From Patescibacteria group bacterium (lineage in GTDB: Bacteria > Patescibacteriota > Minisyncoccia > Phycocordibacterales > PALSA-1337): a stretch of DNA of 64,000 bases. Under the pieces are notes generated by a model. It did no database searches. It saw nothing but the letters and a program-made list of their open reading frames with translations, and had not been told where the DNA came from. Positions within the stretch are counted from its first letter, which is position 1; each line of letters starts with the position of its first letter. The stretch lies in the NCBI GenBank assembly GCA_028865095.1, contig JAGWLA010000002.1, positions 49,319 to 113,318 of the forward strand. Direction: 5' to 3'. Both the position numbers and the translations under genes were made by a program. Shown one piece after another: positions 2,197 through 15,905 of this stretch.

Positions 2197-2252
2197 CGGC
2201 TCAGTATATGATTTTTCGCCGTTTTTTGCTAGAGTGGGGGCATCGCACCGCC

Positions 2253-3395
2253 ATGGGCAGGAAGATAACCATCACCGATACGACCGAGAAAGAGATGCTG
2301 GCTCTCCTCGAGACGAGGGCCGATTTCAAGAGCCTGCGCATGAAGCGCCTCTTGGCTTTGCCCGACCTGACCAAGAAGGAGCATTCGCCGGTCAAGATCC
2401 TCTTCGACGCCGTCATGCGCCTGCCGCGCTTCAAGGACTTCGACATCGTGGATTTCCCGCGCATCGTCACCGTGGAGCAGGATTTCGACCTCCTGAACAC
2501 GCCCAAGGACCACCCGAGCCGCCGGGAGACCGACACCTATTACGTCACCGACCGGTACGTCCTGCGCACCCAGATGACCGCCTTCTGGTCCTTCTATCTC
2601 AAGGACCCCGAAGTCCTGAAGCGCCTCGAGGCCGAAGGGCAGGTGGCCGCCCTCGCTCCCGGCATCGTCTACCGCAAGGACGAGATCGACCGGCACCACT
2701 TCCCGGCCTTCCATCAGATCGACGGCCTGCTCATATGCAAGAGATCAAAGAGAGCCATCACCCAGGACGACCTCAAAGAGGTCCAGGCCGACCTGGCCAA
2801 GGGCATATTCGGCCCTGACATCCAGTACAAGTTCCTGGATGACGACTTCCCGTACACGGTCCAGAGCCTGGAGATGGACATCATGTTCAACGGCGGCTGG
2901 ATGGAGGTGAACGGCGCCGGCCTGGTCAACCCGGTCGTCCTTCGCAACTTCGGCCTCGACCCGGAGATCTATAACGGCTGGGCCTTCGGCTTCGGCGAGC
3001 GCCTGGCCATGATCAAGATGGGCATCCCCGACATCCGCATCCTCTGGTCCGACGACCCGCGCATCACCAGCCAGTTCAAAGACATCGATTCGAAGTTCAA
3101 GGAGGTCAGCCGGTATCCGGCCATCGTCCGCGACATCTCCTTCGTGGTGGACGCGAGCATGGCCCTCAACAACTATTTCGAGATCGTCCGCGAATGCGCC
3201 GGCGACCTCATCGAGGAAGTGAAGCTGGTCGACGAGTATGAGAACGCCGCGAAGTTCGGCGCAGGGAAGAAGAGCTACACTTTCCGCATCACCTACCGCT
3301 CATTCGAGCGCACTCTGACCAACGAGGAGGTCAACGCCATCCACGAGAAGATCCGGGAGAAGACGGCGAGCGAGCTGAAGGCCGCCGTCCGCTAA
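2253..3395 (+). CDS. pheS: phenylalanine--tRNA ligase, monomeric (mitochondrial-like) architecture: PheS-type class II catalytic domain fused to a C-terminal FDX-ACB anticodon-binding domain
   Basis: PheS motif 1 (DHPSRRETDTYYV), motif 2 region (FHQIDGL) and motif 3 (GWAFGFGERLAMIKMGIPDIRILWSDD). The C-terminal 95 aa (RDISFVVDAS...KKSYTFRITYRSFERTLTNEEVNAIHEKIRE...ELKAAVR) matches the ferredoxin-fold anticodon-binding domain normally found at the C-terminus of PheT. Start chosen at MGRKITIT because the listed ORF start at 2208 would leave only 11 bp to the divergent GT2 gene. Confidence 0.7.
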   Translation: MGRKITITDTTEKEMLALLETRADFKSLRMKRLLALPDLTKKEHSPVKILFDAVMRLPRFKDFDIVDFPRIVTVEQDFDLLNTPKDHPSRRETDTYYVTDRYVLRTQMTAFWSFYLKDPEVLKRLEAEGQVAALAPGIVYRKDEIDRHHFPAFHQIDGLLICKRSKRAITQDDLKEVQADLAKGIFGPDIQYKFLDDDFPYTVQSLEMDIMFNGGWMEVNGAGLVNPVVLRNFGLDPEIYNGWAFGFGERLAMIKMGIPDIRILWSDDPRITSQFKDIDSKFKEVSRYPAIVRDISFVVDASMALNNYFEIVRECAGDLIEEVKLVDEYENAAKFGAGKKSYTFRITYRSFERTLTNEEVNAIHEKIREKTASELKAAVR

Positions 3396-3409
3396 GCCAT
3401 CGCATATAT

Positions 3410-4249
3410 ATGGAACCCCACGCACATCATCGAGAGACGGCGCCGGATGCGGCCCCGAAGGAAGCCGGCCGGCCGATCGACCTCGCGGCCCTCAAGCGCC
3501 AAGCCTGGCAGGACACGGTCCATGAGCTCCGGGACCTGGTCTTCTCCAAAGACGCGGCGTACGAAGCCGACGCGGCCGTCAGCCGGAAGATCGACGAGAA
3601 CAGCCGGTTCACGCCGGGCTTCCTGGCCCTTCTGGCAGGCGCGTCGGTGGTCTGCACCCTCGGCCTCCTCATGAACTCGTCCGCCGTCATCATCGGCGGC
3701 ATGATCATATCGCCCATCATGTGGCCGCTCATCAAAGCGGCGTTCGGCGTGTCCTTCGAGAACCTGTCGTACATATGGCGGGCGGCGGCCATCCTCGCCT
3801 TCAGCGTCATCTTGGCCGTGCTGGCGTCGGCGGCGATCACCCTTCTGTCGCCGATCCATGCCCTCGACGCCGAGATACTGGCGCGGACCCACCCGACCTT
3901 CCTCGACATCGTCGTCGCCCTGGTGGCCGGCTTCGTGGCGGCCCTCGGCATGATCAAGCCCCGCATATCGGAGAATCTCGCCGGGGTGGCCATCGCCGTC
4001 TCCCTCATGCCGCCCCTCTGCGTGGCCGGCATCGGCATCGCTTTGGTCAACGGCGCCGTGTCGCTGGCCGGCCTCTATCTGTTCCTGGAGAACGCCGTGG
4101 CCATCATATTCGTCGCCACGCTGGTCTTCGCCTATTATTCGCGGGTCACTAAGCGCATGAGCGTCTGGCGCCGCCGCTCCATCATCGCTTTGGCGATCGT
4201 CCTGGCCATCGTCTCGATCCCCGGCATCGTGTCTCTGTATCACGGGTAG
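3410..4249 (+). CDS. DUF389-family integral membrane protein
   Basis: Soluble N-terminal 60 aa followed by several hydrophobic helices (GFLALLAGASVVCTLGLLMNSSAVIIGGMIISPIMWPLIKAAFG...), typical of DUF389/TIGR00341 proteins. Confidence 0.45.
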   Translation: MEPHAHHRETAPDAAPKEAGRPIDLAALKRQAWQDTVHELRDLVFSKDAAYEADAAVSRKIDENSRFTPGFLALLAGASVVCTLGLLMNSSAVIIGGMIISPIMWPLIKAAFGVSFENLSYIWRAAAILAFSVILAVLASAAITLLSPIHALDAEILARTHPTFLDIVVALVAGFVAALGMIKPRISENLAGVAIAVSLMPPLCVAGIGIALVNGAVSLAGLYLFLENAVAIIFVATLVFAYYSRVTKRMSVWRRRSIIALAIVLAIVSIPGIVSLYHG

Positions 4250-4345
4250 GCGCGGAAGCGCATCGCCTGCGGCCTCGTCCGATAGGGGATGGAAAATAAA
4301 ACACCCGTCCAGATCTCTCTGAACGGGCTCGGGTGACGAAGGGCT

Positions 4346-6205
4346 TTACTTTTGAGGGGCTGCAGGCGTCGTATCGGTATCCATGCCTGGTCCCGTCGCG
4401 CGATCGGCAGTCTGCTTGAGAAGCATATTAGCCAGAAGGACATCGACGATCGTGCCGCCGCCTTGGCCATCCCTGGAACCGCTTCCCACTGTGATGCTCG
4501 GTACGATTGGAACCCTGCTGTTGCTCAAAGATTGAGCGACTTGAACGGCGGCATAGTTGCCGGCTTCCATGGATCTGATCTTCAGCTGGATGACGTCCGC
4601 TTCGGCAGTGCCGACAGCTTTGGTCTTCGCCGCCTCAGCTTCGCCGACGGTCTTGACGACCATCGCGTCGGCGGCTGCCTGGACCTTTTTTGCTTCGGCT
4701 AGGCCGCCGGCCTGCTTTATCGCGGCTTGAGCCTGGAAGTCGGCGATCGAGACGCTGCGCTCGGCGTTGACGACAGTGGCCTGCGTCTCTGCCATAGCAG
4801 TGGCTTGTTGGAGATCCTTGCGGGTCTCTTGGGCCAGTCTTTGCGTCTCGAACGTGACTTTCTCCTGTTCAGCCAGCTTCCGGTCCGTCAAGGTCTTCAT
4901 GAGCGATTCCGGCGGGACGATGTCCCCGATCAGGGTATCGACTGCGCCGACGTTGTATTCTTGAAGGGCTGACGAAATGGCGGTCTTCGCTTCTTTTTGG
5001 CGTTCCTGCCGTTTTTTAAGGAAGTCGATGACATCGGAATTCTGAGCCGCATTGCGGAAGTAATTTCCGATTGTCGGCTCCAATACTTGGCTGACCAGAT
5101 TCTCCACGCTGCCGAAGCGGGCGATGACCCTAGGGGCATCGTTCCGCGGTATGTGGATGATCTGGCTCACGTCCAAGTTGAAGGTGAACCCATCCGACGA
5201 ACGGACCTTGATGGTGCACAGATTCGCATCGAGCTTATGTGCCTCGCTCTTGCCGTCTGCCCAATTAAGGACGACGTTAGCCGTCGGCACGCTGACCACG
5301 TTGTGAGTGTAAGGGTTTATCGGATATTTGCCGGGGTCTAAGACCTCGACCCAAACGCCCTTTTGGCCTTTGCTCACCAAGTTCCCATGTTTGAAGCCGT
5401 CGCCGGTCGTGTCGATGCCGGTGGCTCCTACATAAGCGATGACGACGCCTACGTGGGCTATCGGCACCTCGGTCATCGGCTTGATCTCGATCGTGGCGAA
5501 TCGCGGATTGATGTAATACTGGCCGGCCACAAGCACCTGTTCTTGCAGGCCTTTGTAGCCGCCATGCTCGATGAAGGATTCCCCGTCCTGGAATGTATTA
5601 TGCTCGGGGACTTCCTTGCCGGCGATCTCGCCGGTGGGCAGCGGCTTGCCGTCCTGGGTGGTGACGATGCCGATGGCATTGTCACTGATCTGGGTGGTCA
5701 ACGCCGCGCTGACCTCGAAGAATGCGGTATTGATGCGGTAGGTCCCTGGCGGGATGATGGCGATCTGGGGCCCGCGCTCCCCGCCGCCTTCGAGGAACAT
5801 TCGCACGTTTTGGAACGAGTCGCATTTGACCGTCTTGGCCAAGATGCGGCCATTTGCGAGCGGCTTGCCGCCGCGCGCCTCGACCACGCCTATGTGGCCT
5901 TGTTCGATCGAGATGAATTGCTGGAGCTGGATGCTGAATTGCCACGGCCAGAACCAGAAATGCACGCCGGGAGGCAGCGTATCTGCTTGGATGCCCGCTT
6001 CGCCCTTCAAGGCGATGATCTCACCGTCCGGGAGTGTCCGGTTCGCTCCGAATAGGGCGAATTTCTTATTGACGATGCCGATGGCGTTCTTCGGGATGAA
6101 GATGACGCCGAAGATCCGAAGAAGGATCTTGTAACAGAGGATCGCAATGACGATCGCTGCGACCGGGATGCCGATGGCTATAAGACTGCTCAATGATGCT
6201 GTCAT
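4346..6205 (-). CDS. SPFH/band-7 flotillin-like membrane protein
   Basis: N-terminal TM anchor (MTASLSSLIAIGIPVAAIVIAILCYKILL), SPFH-like core, long Ala/Gln/Glu-rich C-terminal coiled-coil region (flotillin-like). Start placed at the internal Met (6205) preceded by AGGAAA. The longer listed ORF (to 6343) runs into the promoter region of the divergent gene. Confidence 0.6.
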   Translation of the reverse strand: MTASLSSLIAIGIPVAAIVIAILCYKILLRIFGVIFIPKNAIGIVNKKFALFGANRTLPDGEIIALKGEAGIQADTLPPGVHFWFWPWQFSIQLQQFISIEQGHIGVVEARGGKPLANGRILAKTVKCDSFQNVRMFLEGGGERGPQIAIIPPGTYRINTAFFEVSAALTTQISDNAIGIVTTQDGKPLPTGEIAGKEVPEHNTFQDGESFIEHGGYKGLQEQVLVAGQYYINPRFATIEIKPMTEVPIAHVGVVIAYVGATGIDTTGDGFKHGNLVSKGQKGVWVEVLDPGKYPINPYTHNVVSVPTANVVLNWADGKSEAHKLDANLCTIKVRSSDGFTFNLDVSQIIHIPRNDAPRVIARFGSVENLVSQVLEPTIGNYFRNAAQNSDVIDFLKKRQERQKEAKTAISSALQEYNVGAVDTLIGDIVPPESLMKTLTDRKLAEQEKVTFETQRLAQETRKDLQQATAMAETQATVVNAERSVSIADFQAQAAIKQAGGLAEAKKVQAAADAMVVKTVGEAEAAKTKAVGTAEADVIQLKIRSMEAGNYAAVQVAQSLSNSRVPIVPSITVGSGSRDGQGGGTIVDVLLANMLLKQTADRATGPGMDTDTTPAAPQK

Positions 6206-9592: not shown

Positions 9593-9956
9593 ATGTTTTC
9601 AATGTTCTATTGTTGTTATCTATCCACTGGATGCGGGACAAAAAATCCCGGCTTTCGTCCAGTCGGGATGTTTCGGGGAAGCGTAAGGAGGTTGAGCTCT
9701 ATAGCATATGAGAAACATCGCGACTGTCCGCAAGCGCGCCCTTGTAGGCGAGCACGAAGTTGGAACCGCGCTCGAAGTGCGGCATCCAAGCGGTCATGAT
9801 GTTGTTCTTATGCTCTCGTTGCATAACGATAATACGGTACTACGAGAGGGGAGGTGGTGTCAAGGAGAATGGCGCGAATACTTGACTTGATAATCGGAAT
9901 CCATGGTAAAATATAGGTAAGTCAAACCGACCCCAATCCAAAAATCTTGTCTGAGG

Positions 9957-9990
9957 ACGCGGTCGGTGTGGCCGCGTCCTTTTTTGGACG
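9957..9990 (+). terminator. rho-independent terminator of a possible short transcript
   Basis: GGACGCGG-TCGGTGTG-GCCGCGTCC hairpin followed by TTTTTTGG. An extended -10 TGGTAAAAT with an upstream TTGACT lies about 60 nt before it (see finding). Confidence 0.4.
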
Positions 9991-10450
9991 CAAGGTCGAT
10001 TAATAGTCGCTAAAATTCTTTAACCATCCCAATGCCAGACAGATCAAGAGATAGGAATGGCAGGCTTCGCGAGAAGCGTGCTGACACCAAAGTCGAGACT
10101 CTGAAGGAGACCTACCCTGAATTCGAAGGTATAAATGGAAACATGCATCTCGGTACCCTCAAGGAAGCTTTCGGAACGGAATCGCTGGATGGAGTTCGTC
10201 GCGCTCTTCGCGGTGCATAGAACTTCATACAACCTAATACCCTGAAAACAGTCGAGACAAGCGGCTGTTTTTGTATGCCAAGTTTAAACTATTGCAAAAA
10301 TGAAAACAGGAGTATAATTGTCGCACTTGCACGCATGGTCAGGTCGTCCGTTGCGATCATGCGAATCTAGAAGTCCAGAAAACGCTCTTGAAGCGCCGTT
10401 TTCTGATCGGTTTTGTCAATGTTTTATTAATAGTTAACTTAGTATAGACT

Positions 10451-11314
10451 ATGTACACGACACAACTTTTACCTGTCATGATTAGCAAAAAGATATTATC
10501 GAATGTCGAATCGAAGCCGTATTTCCAAAAAGGCGATTTTGTTCTTTATCATGGGGATTCTTTGAATGTTCTGGCTCAGTTGCCGGAGAATTCTATAGAT
10601 ATGATATTTGCAGATCCGCCATACAACCTTTCAAACGGGGGTTTTAGCGTCCATGCAGGCAAAATGGTTAGTGTGAACAAAGGTGACTGGGACAAGAGTA
10701 AAGGATTCAAGGATGATTATGATTTTCATTATCGCTGGCTGGAGGCTTGTAAGCGCATACTGAAGCCAAATGGAACACTTTGGGTTAGTGGAACGTATCA
10801 TTCCATATATCAATGTGGCCATGCGCTTCAGGCGCTTGGTTATCATATCCTGAATGATATTTCTTGGTTTAAGCCGAATGCTTCACCGAACCTAAGTTGC
10901 AGATTTTTCACTGCAAGCCACGAGACGATCATTTGGGCTAGGAAGGACAAGAAGGGGAAACACACTTTTAACTATGAATGGATGAAGAATAAGGAATGGC
11001 CAAGCGACTTTTTTAAGAATCCTAATAAACAGATGAGGAGTGTTTGGCATATACCAGACGTAGAGGATGTTTGGACTGTCGGTACTCCCAAAAGGGAAGA
11101 GAAAACGTTTGGAAAACATCCTACACAGAAGCCGCTGGAACTTCTCCGTAGGATCGTGCTTGCAAGCACAAATAGGGGTAATATAGTCCTTGACCCATTC
11201 ACTGGCAGTTCGACTACGGGAATAGCCTCGATCATGAATGGTCGAAAGTTTGTCGGTATAGATACTACGAAGGATTTTCTTGAGCTTTCAAAGAAGCGAT
11301 TACTAGAATTATAG
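10451..11314 (+). CDS. type II DNA methyltransferase, beta-class amino-MTase (N6-adenine or N4-cytosine)
   Basis: Motif IV DPPY (IFADPPYNLS) precedes motif I (IVLDPFTGSSTTGIA) in a beta-class permutation. The gene sits in a low-GC (about 40%) segment. Confidence 0.8.
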   Translation: MYTTQLLPVMISKKILSNVESKPYFQKGDFVLYHGDSLNVLAQLPENSIDMIFADPPYNLSNGGFSVHAGKMVSVNKGDWDKSKGFKDDYDFHYRWLEACKRILKPNGTLWVSGTYHSIYQCGHALQALGYHILNDISWFKPNASPNLSCRFFTASHETIIWARKDKKGKHTFNYEWMKNKEWPSDFFKNPNKQMRSVWHIPDVEDVWTVGTPKREEKTFGKHPTQKPLELLRRIVLASTNRGNIVLDPFTGSSTTGIASIMNGRKFVGIDTTKDFLELSKKRLLEL

Positions 11315-11321
11315 AAACAAC

Positions 11322-11843
11322 ATGATCAAAAAAGGAGTTGGAGGAGGAAATACAATAACTGGTCTTCGCTTCGAAAAGAGAGCAAGCATCTTAAAGCTTC
11401 TTAGTAGTCATGAAGGCTATAAAGTAAAAGGTCACATTATCTATTACCAAGGTAATGAAGTAGCGCAAAGTTATAGAAAAAATGGACTATATAAATACCT
11501 CGAATCAAAGGGTGTAGACTACGAAAAATATATATCCAAGAAATTACTTCCCGACGAGGCTATTTATGTGATCAGAAATAACACTCTATTTGTCATAGAG
11601 ATTAAATTCCAGAGTGTTGCAGGCTCGGTCGATGAAAAGCTTCAGACTTGTGACTTCAAGAAAAAGCAATACAAGAAGCTTGTGGCACCACTTAATATCG
11701 ATGCAGAATATATCTATATTCTGAATGATTGGTTTAGGAGACCAGAATATAAAGATGTTCTGGACTATATTATTTCGGTTGGATGCCAGTATTATTTCCA
11801 ATACTTACCATTGGAGAAGATCGGGCTACCAGTCCCAGCCTAA
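11322..11843 (+). CDS. putative type II restriction endonuclease (PD-(D/E)xK fold)
   Basis: Starts 8 nt after the methyltransferase stop, with the same low GC. Candidate PD...ExK motif (LLPDEAIYVIRNNTLFVIEIKFQ). No database check possible. Confidence 0.45.
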   Translation: MIKKGVGGGNTITGLRFEKRASILKLLSSHEGYKVKGHIIYYQGNEVAQSYRKNGLYKYLESKGVDYEKYISKKLLPDEAIYVIRNNTLFVIEIKFQSVAGSVDEKLQTCDFKKKQYKKLVAPLNIDAEYIYILNDWFRRPEYKDVLDYIISVGCQYYFQYLPLEKIGLPVPA

Positions 11844-11862
11844 AGATAATTGTAATAATTTT

Positions 11863-13386
11863 ATGGCTACAAGTTGGAAGGAATGGGAAAATAAAATAGG
11901 AAGAATCTTTAAGAATATTGGTTATACAAAGGTAGATAATATTGATAATTCAATTAATCTACAACCAAGAGAATTCTGTTTAGAGAAGCTGAATCATGAT
12001 ATGCAGGTAGATGTATTTGTCTGTGTTGATAAATCTCAGTGGGTACATATAGAGTGCCGAGATCGGAGGAATCGGACCATAAATGGGTGGCTTCACGAGA
12101 TTAAAGGACGTACTAGCCAACGTCTGACAAAACTAAAGAAAGGATTAAAAATAAAAAATATCAAGGTATTTGGTGTAGCTGCCACATCGCTAAGAGACCT
12201 TGATGGTAAGACCCAGAATGTTGCGGATGATACTGGTGTTGCGCTTTGGCATCACGGAGTAGTGGATTATTTACTTGCTATAACTAAAGGTGCTGGTGGT
12301 CAAGCAGAAGAGCTAGTCTTGAATAGGTGTGGAATTAGGAGAAGTAAGTACTTACCAATAAACATACAAGTTCAACCATGGCCAGGTATATCTGAGTCCT
12401 GGTTTATTGGATACGTATCTCCGCTTCAGATAGCTCACGCGACATTTGTTTATCAACGTGGTAATGGATTTGGAGAATCTGCATATCAGAGATTTCTAAA
12501 ACCACAACGCATTACTGAGATAGCAGACTTTGTTAGAAGTGGTAAATCATTTCCTAATTCAATAGTGATGGCCTTGCCGAAGGGGACCAAGTTGCCAGGC
12601 AGTACCGTAATTAGAGCAAATAATCTAATTACGATTTCGATTCCTGGTGATCCGGAGGGGATCAAGATAATTGATGGTCAGCATAGATTTTTTGGAGCGT
12701 TAGCTTCTGGAATGAACCCGAAGCTTTTGTGCACATTTGTTCAATCTGAAGATCTAGATCAAGCGATCATGTTCGCGAAGATTAACGGTAAACAGGTTAG
12801 TGTTAGTAAGAGCCAATTGATCTCACTATTTTCAATTCCGAATTTTGCAGCAAAGATAGCAGCAGGATACTCAGAAAGAGATCATTTGAAGATTGAACGG
12901 GAGGACACGGTATATAGGGCACTCCAAAGAATGAACCAGAAAGGATTATTTGCTCACAAATTTAATTTTATCTCAGGTAGGCCTTCCAAGGACACGATAC
13001 CGTTTAAATTTATATTTGACACTCTTATGTCACTATGGAATGTTGAGCCGTCCGGACTTGTCACTCTATCAGGGACTACGCAGGAAAAAGGAAAAGTCTT
13101 AGGGGACCGCTTAACATCCTTTTTGTCTGCTTGGGGAAAAGTACTTGGAAAGGAACGCCTTATGGATAGTCAGATATGGTTGCAGCCAACCATGCTAAGT
13201 GCACTAATTAAGACGTATCCAGACTGTAGATGGAATGCTGGGAAAAAGGATGTTGATTCTTGGCTTAAGCGGAGAGGGAAAATATCGTGGATACCTAAAC
13301 CAGAATCTTATCGCGGTGGTTCAGGGGCCTCGACTTTATCAAAGCTGCTATGTAGGAAAATAGGTATCAAGTCACAGTATATTTAG
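11863..13386 (+). CDS. DGQHR-domain (DndB/DpdB-like, ParB/Srx-fold) protein with a ~240-aa N-terminal extension
   Basis: IIDGQHRFFGA motif, preceded by FPNSIVMALPKG, which is typical of the start of the DGQHR/DndB domain. The N-terminal domain (WENKIGRIFKNIGY...DVFVCVDKSQWVHIECRD) looks like an Mrr/restriction-endonuclease-type fold. Start is 19 nt after the putative endonuclease gene, so the three genes probably form one operon. Confidence 0.55.
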   Translation: MATSWKEWENKIGRIFKNIGYTKVDNIDNSINLQPREFCLEKLNHDMQVDVFVCVDKSQWVHIECRDRRNRTINGWLHEIKGRTSQRLTKLKKGLKIKNIKVFGVAATSLRDLDGKTQNVADDTGVALWHHGVVDYLLAITKGAGGQAEELVLNRCGIRRSKYLPINIQVQPWPGISESWFIGYVSPLQIAHATFVYQRGNGFGESAYQRFLKPQRITEIADFVRSGKSFPNSIVMALPKGTKLPGSTVIRANNLITISIPGDPEGIKIIDGQHRFFGALASGMNPKLLCTFVQSEDLDQAIMFAKINGKQVSVSKSQLISLFSIPNFAAKIAAGYSERDHLKIEREDTVYRALQRMNQKGLFAHKFNFISGRPSKDTIPFKFIFDTLMSLWNVEPSGLVTLSGTTQEKGKVLGDRLTSFLSAWGKVLGKERLMDSQIWLQPTMLSALIKTYPDCRWNAGKKDVDSWLKRRGKISWIPKPESYRGGSGASTLSKLLCRKIGIKSQYI

Positions 13387-13395
13387 TATCCACAG

Positions 13396-13893
13396 TTGAA
13401 ATACATGTCCACCGCCAAATCGACACGCTACAGCCCGGAGAGCTTCTTGAAGGGGAAGATAGGGGAATTCGTCTTCGAGGAGATGTTCCGCAGGGCGGGG
13501 AGATTCACGGTCCTGCCATTCGGCTATGAGAAGACCCTGCCGGAGGTGGCTCAAAGGGTCGACCACGTGAGGTACAAGCATATCCTCGAGAATATAAGGA
13601 GCGCGCCGGATTTCGTCATCATCTCCCATGACGCCGCTAACGTCTATATGGTCGAAGTCAAATACCGCACCACCAAGACGGCCGAGGAGATGCTCGAGAT
13701 CGCCAAGGGCATCCAGAAGCGCTGGACCGCCATATGGGTATTCCTGGCCACGCCCGACGGATTCTATTTCGACTCTTGCACCGATATCGTCAAGAATGGG
13801 GGAGCCATGGCGCGGCTCAATACCGGCTGGGTCGATGAGGAGACGCAGAGGGAGTTCGGGGAGTTGCTGAGGAAGTTTGTGCCGGGAAAGTAG
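13396..13893 (+). CDS. PD-(D/E)xK nuclease-fold protein (Hjc/restriction-endonuclease-like)
   Basis: GEFVFEEMFRRAGRFTVLPFGYEK...APDFVIISHDAANVYMVEVKYR resembles the Hjc/NucS-type G...PD...(E)VK core. Confidence 0.4.
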   Translation: MKYMSTAKSTRYSPESFLKGKIGEFVFEEMFRRAGRFTVLPFGYEKTLPEVAQRVDHVRYKHILENIRSAPDFVIISHDAANVYMVEVKYRTTKTAEEMLEIAKGIQKRWTAIWVFLATPDGFYFDSCTDIVKNGGAMARLNTGWVDEETQREFGELLRKFVPGK

Positions 13894-13918: not shown

Positions 13919-14422
13919 ATGACCCTGATTTCCACCTGGAAAGATCCCGACGGACACATGGTGCGCTTCGAATATGAGGATGCGGATGATTTCAGCATGC
14001 TGGACAAGAGCAAATGCCGCCAAGTGTATGGCGTCTGCTTCTGTGATGGCAAACTGGTCATAGGCCGCGGCGGGCGCAAGGGGGATTGGGGCCTCATAGG
14101 CGGGACCATAGAGCCTGGAGAGACATTCGAGGAGACTCTGAAGCGCGAGGTTCAAGAAGAGTCCAATATGGAGGTCCTTACCGCCAAACCAATCGGATAT
14201 CAGAAGGCTGTCGATACCCGTGACGGTTCATGGGTATACCAACTCCGTTATGTTTGTCGAGTGCAGCCGTATGGTCCGTTCACCGGCGATCCTGATGGTG
14301 GCAGTATACAGGAGATCAAGCTCATAGATCCCGCCGACTATCGCACATACTTCGATTGGGGAGAGACCGGTGAACGGATGATACATAGATCGATCGAGTC
14401 GATTGAAAGATTATCAAAATAA
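13919..14422 (+). CDS. NUDIX hydrolase
   Basis: Nudix box GGTIEPGETFEETLKREVQEESNMEV (Gx5Ex7REUxEExGU). Start placed at MTLISTW. Confidence 0.7.
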   Translation: MTLISTWKDPDGHMVRFEYEDADDFSMLDKSKCRQVYGVCFCDGKLVIGRGGRKGDWGLIGGTIEPGETFEETLKREVQEESNMEVLTAKPIGYQKAVDTRDGSWVYQLRYVCRVQPYGPFTGDPDGGSIQEIKLIDPADYRTYFDWGETGERMIHRSIESIERLSK

Positions 14423-14432
14423 GCAGTCAAAC

Positions 14433-14885
14433 ATGCCCACCCCACGCTCTCAGCGGAGCTACTGGCTCATCAAATCCGAAGGGGATTGCTACTCGATCGA
14501 CGACTTGCGGCGCGACCGGCGCACGGCGTGGACGGGCATACGCAATTATCAGGCCAGGAACTACATGCGAGACATGAAGCCGGGCGACCTCCTGCTCTTC
14601 TACCATTCCATGGCCGACCCCACCGGCATATACGGCATCGCCAAGGTCGCGAGCGCGCCGTATGCCGACCCGACCGCTCTCGACCCGAAGGACGAGCATT
14701 ATGACCCGAAGCGCCCGTGGGTATGCGTGGACGTGGCCTTCGTCAAGAAGCTCGCCGCTCCGGTCTCGCTTGCAGAGATCAAGGCCGATCCTGCGCTCCG
14801 GCATATGCTCGTCGCCCGGCGCGGCCAGCGCCTGTCCGTCATGCCCGTCGAGGAGGCGCATTTCAAGAAGGTGGAGGCTATGTGA
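14433..14885 (+). CDS. EVE domain (PUA-like) protein
   Basis: YWLIKSEG...WTGIRNYQARNYMRDMKPGDLLLFYHS...GIYGIAKV matches the EVE/Thy28-like PUA fold that binds modified bases. Confidence 0.6.
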   Translation: MPTPRSQRSYWLIKSEGDCYSIDDLRRDRRTAWTGIRNYQARNYMRDMKPGDLLLFYHSMADPTGIYGIAKVASAPYADPTALDPKDEHYDPKRPWVCVDVAFVKKLAAPVSLAEIKADPALRHMLVARRGQRLSVMPVEEAHFKKVEAM

Positions 14886-15001
14886 TCTTCGGCATTGACA
14901 CGCATGCTATAATAAAGCCTCCGAAGTATTCATCCTATCGTTGTTCCGAGCGTCTATCAGCAGGAATGCCCTCATCAGGGTGTTTTTTAATCCAAAAAGC
15001 C

Positions 15002-15409
15002 ATGGCAAAAGCTTTCGATATCTGGAATTCCGTCAAGAAAAGGCTCGATGACAAGGTCATCGGTCGCGACTTCTATTTCAATGAGCGCGAGATATGGTGG
15101 TGCTCGCTCGGGCTCAATGTCGGAGTGGAGTCTGACGGAAAGAGCGACACGTTCGAACGGCCTGTCCTTATCATAAAGAAATTCAATGGGGACATGGTAT
15201 GGATCGTGCCGCTCACCGGTATGCCGCATGACGATAGGTATCACAGAAAGATAGCGCACGGGCGCAACGAATCGTGGGCGTGCCTGACTCAGATACGCAC
15301 GATCAGCACCAAAAGGCTATTGAGGAAGGTCGGAACGCTCGAGGAAGCATATTATCAAAGCGTAGTGGAGGGAGTCGCAGCCAATATAAAAACGAAACCC
15401 TCGCTGTAA
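15002..15409 (+). CDS. MazF/PemK-family toxin-like endoribonuclease
   Basis: REIWWCSLGLNVGVESDGKSDTFERPVLIIKK...VWIVPLTG matches the MazF/EndoA core (Exx-W-xxL-xx-GxE...RPVLhh...V..hPhT). No antitoxin-like ORF is evident upstream. The start is uncertain: in-frame ATGs at 14966 and 15002, with a TGCTATAAT -10 at 14907. Confidence 0.45.
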   Translation: MAKAFDIWNSVKKRLDDKVIGRDFYFNEREIWWCSLGLNVGVESDGKSDTFERPVLIIKKFNGDMVWIVPLTGMPHDDRYHRKIAHGRNESWACLTQIRTISTKRLLRKVGTLEEAYYQSVVEGVAANIKTKPSL

Positions 15410-15470
15410 AGCGAGGGAATCTCGGAGGCCGAAGCCGCTAATACAACAAGTGTAGGCGAATCGAAGCCGG

Positions 15471-15905
15471 GTGTCAATATCTTCTTTGTACATCTGCTAT
15501 CATGTCCCGATGATATCCTCGCGCATCCGCATCCGCCTTCGGGTCCCGCTCTGGCAGACCAGGAGCCGCAAGCTGTACATGGCCAACAGGGAAGCCGCCA
15601 GGAGCCTGGTCCATGAGCGGATCGGGCACTTCATGGCGCATTATGGGCCCCGGCATGGCATCGTCCCAGGCCGCGTCGCCATACGCAATCAGAGGAGCCG
15701 ATGGGGCTCGTGCTCCAGGAAGGGCAACCTCAATTTCAATTACAAGATCCTCTTCCTGCCCGCGGCGGCGCGCGACTATGTCATCGTGCATGAGCTGTGC
15801 CATTTGAAGGAGTTCAACCACGGCAGGCGCTTCTGGGACCTGGTGGCCGAGACCGTGCCGGACTATAAGGCGATCAAAAAGGGGATGAGGGAGCGGGTGG
15901 GGTGA
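15471..15905 (+). CDS. DUF45/YgjP-like metal-dependent hydrolase (M48-like HExxH), apparently N-terminally truncated
   Basis: RWGSCSRKGNLNFNYKILFLPAAARDYVIVHELCHLKEFNHGRRFWDLVAETVPDYK matches the WGSC...HELxHL core of DUF45. About 60-70 aa of the usual N-terminus seem to be missing. Confidence 0.55.
   Translation: MSISSLYICYHVPMISSRIRIRLRVPLWQTRSRKLYMANREAARSLVHERIGHFMAHYGPRHGIVPGRVAIRNQRSRWGSCSRKGNLNFNYKILFLPAAARDYVIVHELCHLKEFNHGRRFWDLVAETVPDYKAIKKGMRERVG

What the first reader, a model, noticed from the sequence alone, without database searches (positions are those of the whole stretch)
9600..13390. Low-GC island: methyltransferase - PD-(D/E)xK endonuclease - DGQHR-domain protein, a three-gene module resembling an R-M system with an extra DndB-like partner
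A roughly 3.8-kb segment of much lower GC (about 40% versus about 65% in the flanks) carries three tightly spaced same-strand genes with gaps of 8 nt and 19 nt. They are a beta-class DPPY amino-methyltransferase, a 173-aa protein with a PD...ExK motif, and a 508-aa protein whose C-terminal half is a DGQHR (DndB/DpdB-like ParB/Srx-fold) domain. DGQHR proteins are known from the dnd phosphorothioation and dpd 7-deazaguanine DNA-modification systems. Their partner enzymes (DndACDE, DpdA, QueC and others) are absent here. A DGQHR protein coupled to a conventional methyltransferase/endonuclease pair is not an arrangement I recognise from established defence systems, so this may be an undescribed variant. 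The GC contrast and its position between a GNAT gene and core genes argue for horizontal acquisition.
Basis: partly seen in the sequence, partly recalled or inferred. Interest (0 to 1): 0.75.

Follow-up and report, generated by a model that had tools for sequence, protein, structure and literature searches.

The report
Restriction-modification cassette with extra nuclease-DGQHR gene
A horizontally acquired, low-GC island in a Patescibacteria genome carries an ordinary two-gene restriction-modification system plus a rare third gene, a nuclease fused to a DndB-like (DGQHR) DNA-binding/NTPase domain, and relatives of that third gene sit beside a DNA methyltransferase wherever their neighbours could be read, which points to an uncharacterised accessory layer of methylation-based defence.

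Summary
Three same-strand genes lie at 10451-13386, at 39.8% GC in a 60% GC window.

- **Gene 1** is a beta-class DNA methyltransferase (PF01555, E 6e-57). Its closest solved relative is CcrM.
- **Gene 2** (173 aa) belongs to a very large, highly conserved PD-(D/E)xK family with more than 7,300 clusters. In 80 genomes it sits next to this methyltransferase family (65 of 80). In 13 of the other 15 a DPPY-motif ORF lies just upstream, and all five of those tested are Dam-like D12 methyltransferases. None of the 80 has a DGQHR gene. Genes 1 and 2 therefore form an autonomous Type II restriction-modification pair, possibly GATC-specific.

The gene 3 family is tiny: one cluster at 50% identity among 1.84 billion representatives. 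All 10 readable contexts have an adjacent methyltransferase, and 9 have a small PDDEXK_11-like gene. Its larger relatives (nuclease-DGQHR-HEPN proteins and stand-alone DGQHR proteins) also usually sit next to Dam-like methyltransferases.

My best reading (0.42) is that gene 3 is an NTP-gated auxiliary restriction nuclease tied to the methylation mark. That is inference and has not been shown. I rate it a new variant of a known kind, with moderate to high interest.

The parts
9593..10450 (.). Gene-poor stretch of intermediate GC (47%) between the divergent GNAT gene and the methyltransferase. It is the presumed left edge of the island and the promoter region. It contains only a 62-aa ORF (10032-10220) with no family match.
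   Evidence: DNA similarity to the nearest restriction-modification cassette (L010) starts only at 10445. Promoter and terminator scans are at chance level.
10451..11314 (+). Beta-class N6-adenine/N4-cytosine DNA methyltransferase, 287 aa, with DPPY at residues 55-58. It is the modification subunit of a Type II restriction-modification pair.
   Evidence: PF01555 E 5.9e-57. PADLOC MTase_II E 4.8e-98. CcrM structure 6pbd E 2.4e-57. It is 85% identical to the methyltransferase of a Saccharibacteria cassette, L010.
11322..11843 (+). Small PD-(D/E)xK protein, 173 aa, with D78, E93 and K95, followed by Q97 and GSVDEK at 101-106. It is the inferred restriction endonuclease of the pair.
11863..12342 (+). 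N-terminal domain (residues 1-160) of the 507-aa protein, with a restriction-endonuclease (PD-(D/E)xK) fold. E9, D50 and E64-C65-R66 are invariant. The usual catalytic Lys position is Arg.
12454..13212 (+). DGQHR (ParB/Srx-fold, DndB/DpdB-like) domain, residues 198-450. Q209-R210, D271-G-Q-H-R275 (nt 12673-12687) and F304...N308 are invariant.
13213..13386 (+). End of the helical C-terminal region of the 507-aa protein, specific to this family. It replaces the HEPN domain found in the 650-800 aa relatives and has no conserved Rx4-6H motif.

Best explanation
The island is a composite of two modules.

**Module 1** is an autonomous Type II restriction-modification pair. The beta-class methyltransferase marks host adenines, and the 173-aa PD-(D/E)xK enzyme cuts the same site when it is unmethylated. 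The site is probably GATC and alternatively GANTC.

**Module 2** is the 507-aa protein, a restriction-endonuclease-fold domain fused to a DGQHR ParB/Srx-type NTP-binding and DNA-binding domain. I propose it is an auxiliary restriction factor that depends on the neighbouring methyltransferase for self-protection.
- The DGQHR domain loads on or scans DNA in an NTP-controlled way, as DndB, DpdB and ParB do.
- It licenses the fused nuclease domain to nick or cut DNA that lacks the mark.
- The nuclease may act alone or together with the small PD-(D/E)xK protein.
- This gives a second line of attack if the small endonuclease is evaded or inhibited.

**What is shown:** gene content, folds, motifs, the autonomy of module 1, and the strict linkage of module 2 to methyltransferase genes.

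**What is inferred:** every enzymatic activity, the recognition site, NTP dependence, and the dependence of module 2 on methylation.
For: **Module 1 is an autonomous restriction-modification pair.**
- PF01555 and CcrM-like methyltransferase.
- The 173-aa family is adjacent to the homologous methyltransferase in 65 of 80 genome loci. In 13 of the other 15 a DPPY-motif ORF lies directly upstream, and all 5 of these tested are D12 methyltransferases. None of the 80 has a DGQHR homolog.

**Module 2 is a nuclease-DGQHR fusion.**
- TIGR03187 above its cut-off.
- The catalytic-type acidic residues and all DGQHR motifs are invariant.

**Linkage to methyltransferases.**
- All 10 readable contexts of close homologs have a methyltransferase next to the gene.
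- Across these contexts the methyltransferase class changes (N6_N4 or D12), the small nuclease changes (173/179 aa or 132-140 aa PDDEXK_11), and the gene order changes (convergent in L009, divergent in L097).
- The restriction-modification pair and the DGQHR gene have different nearest relatives. L010 similarity covers 10445-11837 and L001 similarity starts at 11862, so adjacency has been re-created, not merely inherited.
- A distant relative (P0032, 575 aa, Q-C-K motif) is followed directly by an N6_N4 methyltransferase with no other nuclease gene, as in a two-gene restriction-modification pair.
- Of 21 loci of more distant DGQHR proteins with at least 1.5 kb on both sides, 16 have a methyltransferase within 2.5 kb.

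**Precedents.**
- DndB-like proteins bind ATP and GTP (bioRxiv 10.1101/2025.10.10.680097).
- ParB-nuclease fusions such as GmrSD/BrxU act as auxiliary restriction factors in BREX loci (PMC12839542).
- ParB-like domains are often fused to nucleases and linked to restriction-modification systems (PMC3632139).
Against: - No activity has been measured.
- The position of the catalytic lysine is an invariant arginine (E64-C-R66), whereas most relatives have E-C-K. The nuclease domain may be weakened, altered or inactive.
- The restriction-modification pair works without the DGQHR gene in essentially all genomes sampled, so the third gene is dispensable for restriction as such.
- The characterised DGQHR proteins, DndB and DpdB, act on the modification side as a regulator and an ATPase helper, not as restriction enzymes.
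- The structural model of the DGQHR half is only of moderate confidence (pLDDT 40-75 in places).
- The sample of contexts is small, at 10.
Confidence: 0.42

Rival explanations
1. The 507-aa protein is a DndB-like regulator or helper on the modification side. It binds DNA in an NTP-modulated way and either tunes expression of the methyltransferase and endonuclease, like a controller protein, or tunes the methyltransferase's access to DNA. Its nuclease-fold domain serves only for DNA binding or oligomerisation.
For: - DndB is an ATP-dependent repressor of the dnd operon, and DpdB is an ATPase that helps DpdA modify DNA.
- The constant partner of DGQHR proteins across all loci is the modification enzyme, not a nuclease. 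Stand-alone DGQHR proteins sit beside Dam-like methyltransferases with no recognisable nuclease.
- The catalytic Lys is replaced by Arg in this family.
Against: - E9, D50 and E64 are invariant, and the domain is retained over 52-69% sequence divergence.
- Relatives keep a canonical D...E-C-K motif and add a HEPN nuclease, which looks like an effector architecture.
- The restriction-modification pair needs no such regulator in 80 of 80 other genomes.
- No operator-like repeat was found upstream.
Confidence: 0.2
2. The 507-aa protein is an independent restriction enzyme that is modification-dependent (Type IV-like) or otherwise self-contained. It merely travels with restriction-modification cassettes in defence islands, as Mrr, McrBC or BrxU do.
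For: - The logic of a ParB-like NTPase plus a nuclease is the same as in GmrSD/BrxU/SspE.
- The N-terminal fold is closest to Mrr-like (AF1548), Can2 and FokI-type cleavage domains.
- Several homolog loci are defence islands, with a NACHT gene in L097, Schlafen/AlbA_2 in L003-5 and a resolvase in L001.
- Module 2 has a separate evolutionary history from module 1.
Against: - Immediate adjacency to a methyltransferase in 10 of 10 contexts is much tighter than loose defence-island co-location. Gaps are 4 to 33 nt where same-strand, and adjacency persists through changes of methyltransferase class and gene order.
- If the methyltransferases make G-m6A-TC, the enzyme cannot be dependent on that mark without killing the host.
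- No DUF262 or DUF1524 match was found.
Confidence: 0.15
3. The 507-aa protein and the small PD-(D/E)xK protein form one heteromeric endonuclease, by analogy with R.BspD6I. The large subunit provides DNA binding and one cleavage domain, and the small subunit cuts the other strand.
For: - In 9 of 10 contexts a small PDDEXK_11-like ORF lies beside the DGQHR gene.
- The Arg-for-Lys change might be compensated by a partner.
Against: - The 173-aa family occurs without any DGQHR gene in 80 of 80 genome loci, so it cannot need the large protein.
- L097 has no such small ORF.
- No interaction prediction could be run.
Confidence: 0.1

Closest known systems
DpnII/MboI-type Type II restriction-modification systems (D12 Dam-like methyltransferase and/or N6_N4 DpnA-like methyltransferase, plus an endonuclease)
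   Same: - A beta-class N6_N4 methyltransferase sits directly upstream of a small endonuclease gene.
- The same endonuclease family is found with either an N6_N4 or a D12 methyltransferase, and sometimes with both.
- The Neisseria homolog of this methyltransferase is called DpnIIB-like (PMC4269198).
   Different: - The 173-aa endonuclease matches no named restriction-enzyme Pfam family and no solved structure by sequence.
- The recognition site is not established. CcrM (GANTC) is the closest solved methyltransferase.
- A third gene is present.
DndB (dnd phosphorothioation) and DpdB (dpd 7-deazaguanine) DGQHR proteins
   Same: - The same ParB/Srx-type DGQHR domain, with the QR pair and the DGQHR and FxxxN motifs.
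- Always encoded beside a DNA-modification enzyme.
   Different: - It scores below the family cut-offs for DndB (PF14072, 25.6 against 29.1), TIGR04172 (51 against 450) and DpdB (18 against 300).
- The partner is a SAM-dependent methyltransferase, not DndCDE or DpdA.
- It carries an N-terminal restriction-endonuclease domain.
- No dnd genes are present in the window.
Uncharacterised 650-800 aa nuclease-DGQHR-HEPN proteins (for example P0018, P0020, P0017)
   Same: - They are homologous over both the nuclease and DGQHR domains, profile positions about 4-320, E 1e-24 to 1e-14.
- They are found next to Dam-like methyltransferases or dnd genes.
   Different: - They keep the canonical E-C-K motif and end in a Swt1-like HEPN domain.
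- The window's family has E-C-R, a different helical tail, and a small PDDEXK_11-like neighbour.
GmrSD / BrxU / SspE (DUF262 ParB-like NTPase fused to a DUF1524 HNH nuclease)
   Same: - A ParB/Srx-fold NTPase with a DGQ(Q/H)R motif is coupled to a nuclease.
- They are embedded in or next to DNA-modification-based defence loci and act as additional restriction factors.
   Different: - The nuclease superfamily differs (PD-(D/E)xK against HNH), and the domain order is reversed.
- There is no DUF262 or DUF1524 match.
- BrxU appears only as a weak Foldseek hit.
R.BspD6I / N.BspD6I heterodimeric restriction enzyme
   Same: - A large protein with a cleavage domain plus a DNA-binding part is encoded next to a small protein of about 180 aa that is only a cleavage domain.
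- Both are among the top structural matches.
   Different: - There is no sequence relationship.
- The small protein here is autonomous elsewhere.
- The DNA-binding part is a ParB/Srx domain.

Membership tests
Type II restriction-modification system | SAM-dependent DNA methyltransferase with catalytic (D/N/S)PP(Y/F) and SAM-binding motifs | tested here: met
   PF01555 E 5.9e-57. DPPY at residues 55-58. PADLOC MTase_II E 4.8e-98. CcrM 6pbd E 2.4e-57.
Type II restriction-modification system | An adjacent cognate endonuclease gene whose pairing with the methyltransferase is conserved | tested here: met
   65 of 80 genome loci have the homologous N6_N4 methyltransferase adjacent. 13 of the other 15 have a DPPY-motif ORF directly upstream, and all 5 tested are D12 methyltransferases. 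One locus is cut by the contig end. The PD..ExK motif is invariant.
Type II restriction-modification system | The endonuclease cleaves the site that the methyltransferase protects | not testable with these tools
   This needs enzymology or methylome data. Site avoidance in the window is uninformative (GATC observed/expected 1.00, GANTC 0.86).
DGQHR domain (TIGR03187) | Score above the curated cut-off, plus the QR pair and the DGQHR and FxxxN motifs | tested here: met
   68.7 bits against 58.85. Q209-R210, D271-R275 and F304/N308 are invariant in 10 family members and in 115 larger relatives.
DndB (PF14072 / dnd system) | Score above the Pfam gathering threshold, with a dndCDE neighbourhood | tested here: not met
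   25.6 bits against 29.1. TIGR04172 scores 51.3 against 450. tblastn with DndC, DndD and DndE finds nothing significant in the window.
DpdB (NF041060 / dpd system) | Equivalog-level score, with a DpdA (TGT-like) neighbour | tested here: not met
   18.1 bits against 300. PADLOC DpdB E 7.4e-6 only. The neighbours scanned (GNAT, NUDIX, EVE) are none of these, and the 165-aa ORF matched no Pfam family. DpdA and QueC were not searched for elsewhere in the window.
PD-(D/E)xK restriction-endonuclease fold (N-terminal domain of the 507-aa protein) | An alpha-beta-beta-beta-alpha-beta core with acidic residues and Lys in a D...(D/E)xK arrangement | tested here: inconclusive
PDDEXK_11 (PF20472), for the 173-aa protein | Score above the Pfam gathering threshold | tested here: not met
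   19.4 bits against 23.7. It does align with bona fide members (L006, L007, L009) through the D...ExK.Q...G(S/T)x(D/E)(E/Q)K core. It is therefore a related but distinct family with an N-terminal extension.
GmrSD / BrxU / SspE Type IV-like enzymes | A DUF262 N-terminal NTPase domain and a DUF1524 HNH C-terminal nuclease | tested here: not met
   No DUF262 or DUF1524 hit at E up to 0.1. The nuclease here is N-terminal and of the PD-(D/E)xK type.

The most novel reading that the evidence does not exclude
DGQHR proteins linked to methyltransferases may form a widespread, unrecognised class of methylation-based immune systems. In this reading a ParB/Srx-type NTPase reads or polices the m6A mark, probably Dam-type G-m6A-TC, and licenses different effectors:
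- a fused restriction-endonuclease domain, as in this window;
- a fused or separate HEPN RNase;
- a small membrane protein, as in the recurrent Dam-like methyltransferase / membrane protein / DGQHR cassette seen in 22 metagenome loci.

The window's three-gene island would be one streamlined member of that class, in which the DGQHR effector has been grafted onto a classical Type II pair.
Probability: 0.3. Interest if true: 0.8.

Novelty: new variant of a known kind. Interest (0 to 1): 0.6.

Why it matters
DGQHR (DndB/DpdB-like) proteins are known experimentally only as helpers or regulators of two exotic DNA modifications, phosphorothioation and 7-deazaguanine.

In this window, and in roughly a hundred related loci, the same domain is tied to ordinary adenine methyltransferases. 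It is often fused to or flanked by nucleases. If the link is functional, it has three consequences.
- It extends the logic of a ParB-like NTPase combined with a modification mark to the commonest DNA modification in bacteria.
- It adds an auxiliary layer to classical Type II restriction-modification systems.
- It gives a small three-gene operon (2.9 kb) in which the role of a DGQHR domain can be tested directly in a heterologous host.

The work also defines a very abundant, highly conserved 173-aa restriction-endonuclease family for which none of the Pfam, NCBIfam, PADLOC or PHROGs libraries has a passing model, and which the sources name only as hypothetical. This family is especially common in Patescibacteria.

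Tried and rejected
- **Sequence searches of the PDB.** Searches with the 173-aa and 507-aa proteins and their profiles gave no meaningful hits. The ribosomal protein S3 hit of profile A1 came from P0012, a chimeric metagenome protein that I had included. It was removed for A4.
- **Fourth component.** I considered the 165-aa ORF at 13396-13893, which has a PD..EVK motif, as a fourth component and rejected it. It has host-like GC (56%), belongs to a conserved Patescibacteria family, and is absent from every related DGQHR locus.
- **Island boundaries.** I looked for flanking direct repeats, a tRNA or a recombinase. None was found.
- **Transcription signals.** Promoter and terminator scans are at chance level and say nothing about operon structure. 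Rfam finds only tRNAs elsewhere in the window.
- **Recognition-site avoidance.** GATC and GANTC counts in the window are uninformative.
- **Annotated collections.** Phage and plasmid collections hold no full-length relative of the 507-aa protein. PADLOC has no model for any partner protein.
- **Literature.** A search for MADS was unproductive, and no paper mentions PF20472.
- **C-terminal HEPN domain.** I considered whether the 507-aa protein ends in a HEPN domain and rejected it. There is no Pfam hit and no conserved Rx4-6H motif.

Full report
**Observation**

The window belongs to a Patescibacteria metagenome-assembled genome (contig of 126 kb). The sources name the 173-aa protein KGI69_01640 and the 507-aa protein a 'DGQHR domain-containing protein'.

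Three co-directional ORFs lie at 10451-11314 (287 aa), 11322-11843 (173 aa) and 11863-13386 (507 aa). They are separated by 7 and 19 nt. Their GC content is 39.8%, against 60% for the window. The flanks are about 60% GC, not 65%.

**Gene 1**

- PF01555 N6_N4_Mtase, E 5.9e-57.
- DPPY precedes the SAM-binding motif, which is the beta-class order.
- PADLOC Type II methyltransferase, E 4.8e-98.
- The closest solved structure is CcrM (E 2.4e-57).

**Gene 2**

The 173-aa protein has a PD(78)...E(93)xK(95) motif and only a sub-threshold PDDEXK_11 hit. It belongs to a very large family:
- 7,324 clusters at E up to 1e-3.
- The best 120 are 72-100% identical.
- Members are named from Patescibacteria, Altiarchaeota and Bacteroidales.

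A scan of one genome per species returned 80 loci from many phyla.
- In 65 of these the homologous N6_N4 methyltransferase is adjacent. It is upstream on the same strand in 55.
- In 13 of the other 15 an ORF with a DPPY motif lies directly upstream. All five that I tested are D12-class (Dam-like) methyltransferases.
- None of the 80 has a homolog of gene 3.

Genes 1 and 2 are therefore an autonomous, widely transferred Type II restriction-modification pair.

One endonuclease family is served by either an N6_N4 or a D12 methyltransferase. Established knowledge of the DpnII and MboI systems describes the same pattern (DpnM plus DpnA, both acting on GATC). A decayed copy of the pair sits right behind drg, the G-m6A-TC-cutting DpnI-like gene of Neisseria gonorrhoeae, where the methyltransferase has been called DpnIIB-like. 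From this I infer GATC as the likeliest site. GANTC, the CcrM site, is the alternative. This is inference only.

**Gene 3**

The C-terminal two-thirds is a DGQHR domain.
- TIGR03187 scores 68.7 bits, above the 58.85 cut-off, over residues 198-450.
- The protein fails the specific DndB, TIGR04172 and DpdB thresholds.

In the 10-member family alignment the following residues are invariant:
- E9, D50 and E64-C65-R66
- Q209-R210
- D271-G-Q-H-R275
- F304 and N308

**How rare is gene 3, and what are its relatives?**

In 5.8 billion clusters there are 14 close homologs at 52-69% identity. Among 1.84 billion representatives at 50% identity the family is a single full-length cluster.

A further 354 proteins match at E up to 1e-10. 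Among the best 150 listed, most are 650-800 aa long and align over both the nuclease and the DGQHR domains. Those I scanned carry DndB plus weak HSDR_N_2 or Hjc N-terminal hits and a C-terminal Swt1-like HEPN domain. In 115 of them the nuclease motif is D...E-C-K, with K in 75, T in 17 and R in 5.

The window's family is therefore a small offshoot that has lost HEPN and carries Arg at the lysine position.

**Is the three-gene linkage conserved?**

Yes. The readable contexts of close homologs are listed below.

| Locus | Arrangement |
|---|---|
| Window; L001/2; L003-5 | N6_N4 methyltransferase, 173/179-aa nuclease, DGQHR |
| L178 | N6_N4 methyltransferase, 137-aa ORF with a weak PDDEXK_11 hit, DGQHR |
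| L006; L007/8 | D12 methyltransferase, 276-277 aa protein, 132-133 aa PDDEXK_11, DGQHR. L006 has two further ORFs (108 and 230 aa) |
| L095; decayed L099 | N6_N4 methyltransferase, 289-aa protein, 133-aa PDDEXK_11, DGQHR |
| L009 | DGQHR gene convergent with a PDDEXK_11 (140 aa) and N6_N4 methyltransferase pair. That methyltransferase is 66% identical to the window's |
| L097 | N6_N4 methyltransferase divergent from the DGQHR gene. No small nuclease recognised |

- All 10 contexts have an adjacent methyltransferase.
- 9 of 10 have a small PDDEXK_11-like ORF. The 173-aa type shares the D...ExK.Q...G(S/T)x(D/E)(E/Q)K core with the true PDDEXK_11 members.

The modules are mosaic. At the DNA level the window's restriction-modification pair is nearest to a Saccharibacteria cassette (L010, 74% identity over 10445-11837). 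The DGQHR gene is nearest to L001, with similarity starting at 11862. Adjacency has therefore been assembled more than once, which argues for selection and against mere inheritance.

**The wider pattern**

- A distant 575-aa relative (P0032, Q-C-K motif) is followed without a gap by an N6_N4 methyltransferase and no other nuclease.
- Another relative (P0017) lies in a dnd cluster.
- Among metagenome loci encoding more distant DGQHR proteins, 16 of 21 with at least 1.5 kb on both sides have a methyltransferase within 2.5 kb.
- 22 loci show the order Dam-like methyltransferase, gap of 430-680 bp, stand-alone DGQHR protein. In 18 of these the gap holds a 168-240 aa ORF with 2-4 hydrophobic segments.
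- PADLOC 2023 has no model for these partners.

**Mechanism**

The shown facts are the folds, the motifs, the autonomy of the restriction-modification pair, and the strict linkage of the DGQHR gene to a methyltransferase.

The precedents are:
- DndB-like proteins bind ATP and GTP, and DndB is an ATP-dependent repressor.
- DpdB is the ATPase that helps DpdA modify DNA.
- ParB-like NTPase and nuclease fusions (GmrSD/BrxU) act as auxiliary restriction factors inside BREX loci.
- Comparative genomics has already noted ParB-like domains fused to HNH, PD-(D/E)xK or HEPN domains and linked to restriction-modification loci.

I therefore favour, at confidence 0.42, an NTP-gated auxiliary restriction nuclease whose self-protection comes from the neighbouring methyltransferase.

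The rivals are:
- A DndB-like regulator or helper of methylation with a non-catalytic nuclease fold (0.20). The Arg-for-Lys change and the effector-less stand-alone DGQHR cassettes speak for it.
- An independent Type IV-like enzyme travelling with restriction-modification cassettes (0.15).
- A BspD6I-like heteromer with the small nuclease (0.10). This is weakened because the small nuclease is autonomous elsewhere.

**Novelty**

I found no paper on this family, on the 173-aa family or on PF20472. The general idea dates from 2013 (PMC3632139). I rate the finding a new variant of a known kind.

**What led nowhere**

- PDB sequence searches.
- Promoter and terminator scans.
- Site avoidance.
- Search for island boundaries.
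- Phage and plasmid collections.
- The 165-aa downstream ORF is a conserved Patescibacteria host gene and is not part of the island.

Noticed in passing
window 13396-13893 (+); NCBI start at 13405, 162 aa: A small ORF lies 9 nt after the island. It has a PD...E-V-K motif and host-like GC (56%). It belongs to a family conserved across Patescibacteria (154 hits, the best 120 listed at 39-61% identity), and JGI names two members 'Holliday junction resolvase-like predicted endonuclease'. It has no Pfam match and is absent from all related DGQHR loci, so it is a host gene.
   Followed up: yes
L100-L174, for example L115 641-3215, L163 1171-3658, L156 1353-3988: A recurrent three-gene cassette appears in metagenome contigs: a D12-class (Dam-like) methyltransferase, then a 168-240 aa ORF with 2-4 hydrophobic segments, then a stand-alone DGQHR protein of about 360-425 aa. 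It is seen in 22 loci, 18 of them with the membrane-like ORF. PADLOC 2023 covers it only through DpdB and generic methyltransferase hits.
   Followed up: partly
L006 5304-5996; L102 6096-6833; L104 6108-6836: A 230-245 aa protein with an R-N-S-L-Q-H (HEPN-like Rx4H) motif accompanies DGQHR genes in three loci. It mirrors the HEPN domain fused to the 650-800 aa nuclease-DGQHR proteins. It has no Pfam hit, only a weak PADLOC PDC-S64 hit.
   Followed up: partly
L007 4761-5591; L006 4066-4899; L095 2138-3007; L099 (decayed): A conserved protein of 276-289 aa and unknown family (46-54% identity between loci; motifs DETTA(I/V)VRFI and EDEIWL) always sits between the methyltransferase and the 132-133 aa PDDEXK_11 gene in the four-gene variant. 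This holds whether the methyltransferase is of the D12 or the N6_N4 class. The 108-aa ORF after the D12 methyltransferase of L006 matches the C-terminal extension of the 425-aa N6_N4 methyltransferase of L095.
   Followed up: partly
L009 4641-5890, compared with window 14403-15905: A second, distantly related contig has its DGQHR and restriction-modification module next to EVE-domain and YgjP-like genes, which are 45-48% identical to the window's. The module has 44% GC against 53-61% in the flanks. The same genomic neighbourhood seems to have received the module in two lineages, with different gene orientation.
   Followed up: partly
L090 (N. gonorrhoeae NZ_CP119140.1, 6933-15467), ORFs at 2197-4456: A frameshifted copy of the methyltransferase and a truncated copy of the 173-aa gene (49% identity) lie directly downstream of drg, the DpnI-like endonuclease that cuts G-m6A-TC, next to leuS. 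An active GATC methyltransferase would be incompatible with Drg. This fits a GATC specificity for this restriction-modification family but does not prove it.
   Followed up: partly
window 9593-10450: An 850-bp stretch has no convincing gene and intermediate GC (47%). It contains a 62-aa ORF (10032-10220) with no family match. It could be a decayed remnant of the incoming element or a regulatory region.
   Followed up: no
P0012 (436 aa): This metagenome protein is a chimera. Its first two-thirds or so belongs to the DGQHR family, and the rest is ribosomal protein S3 (PF00189). It is probably an assembly artefact. It caused a spurious S3 hit when included in a profile.
   Followed up: yes
L001 3625-4254; L097 4309-9100; L003 11548-13398: Homolog loci carry mobility and defence neighbours: a serine resolvase directly upstream of the cassette (L001), a NACHT NTPase of more than 1,597 aa directly downstream (L097), and a Schlafen/AlbA_2 and HATPase protein nearby (L003-5).
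   Followed up: no
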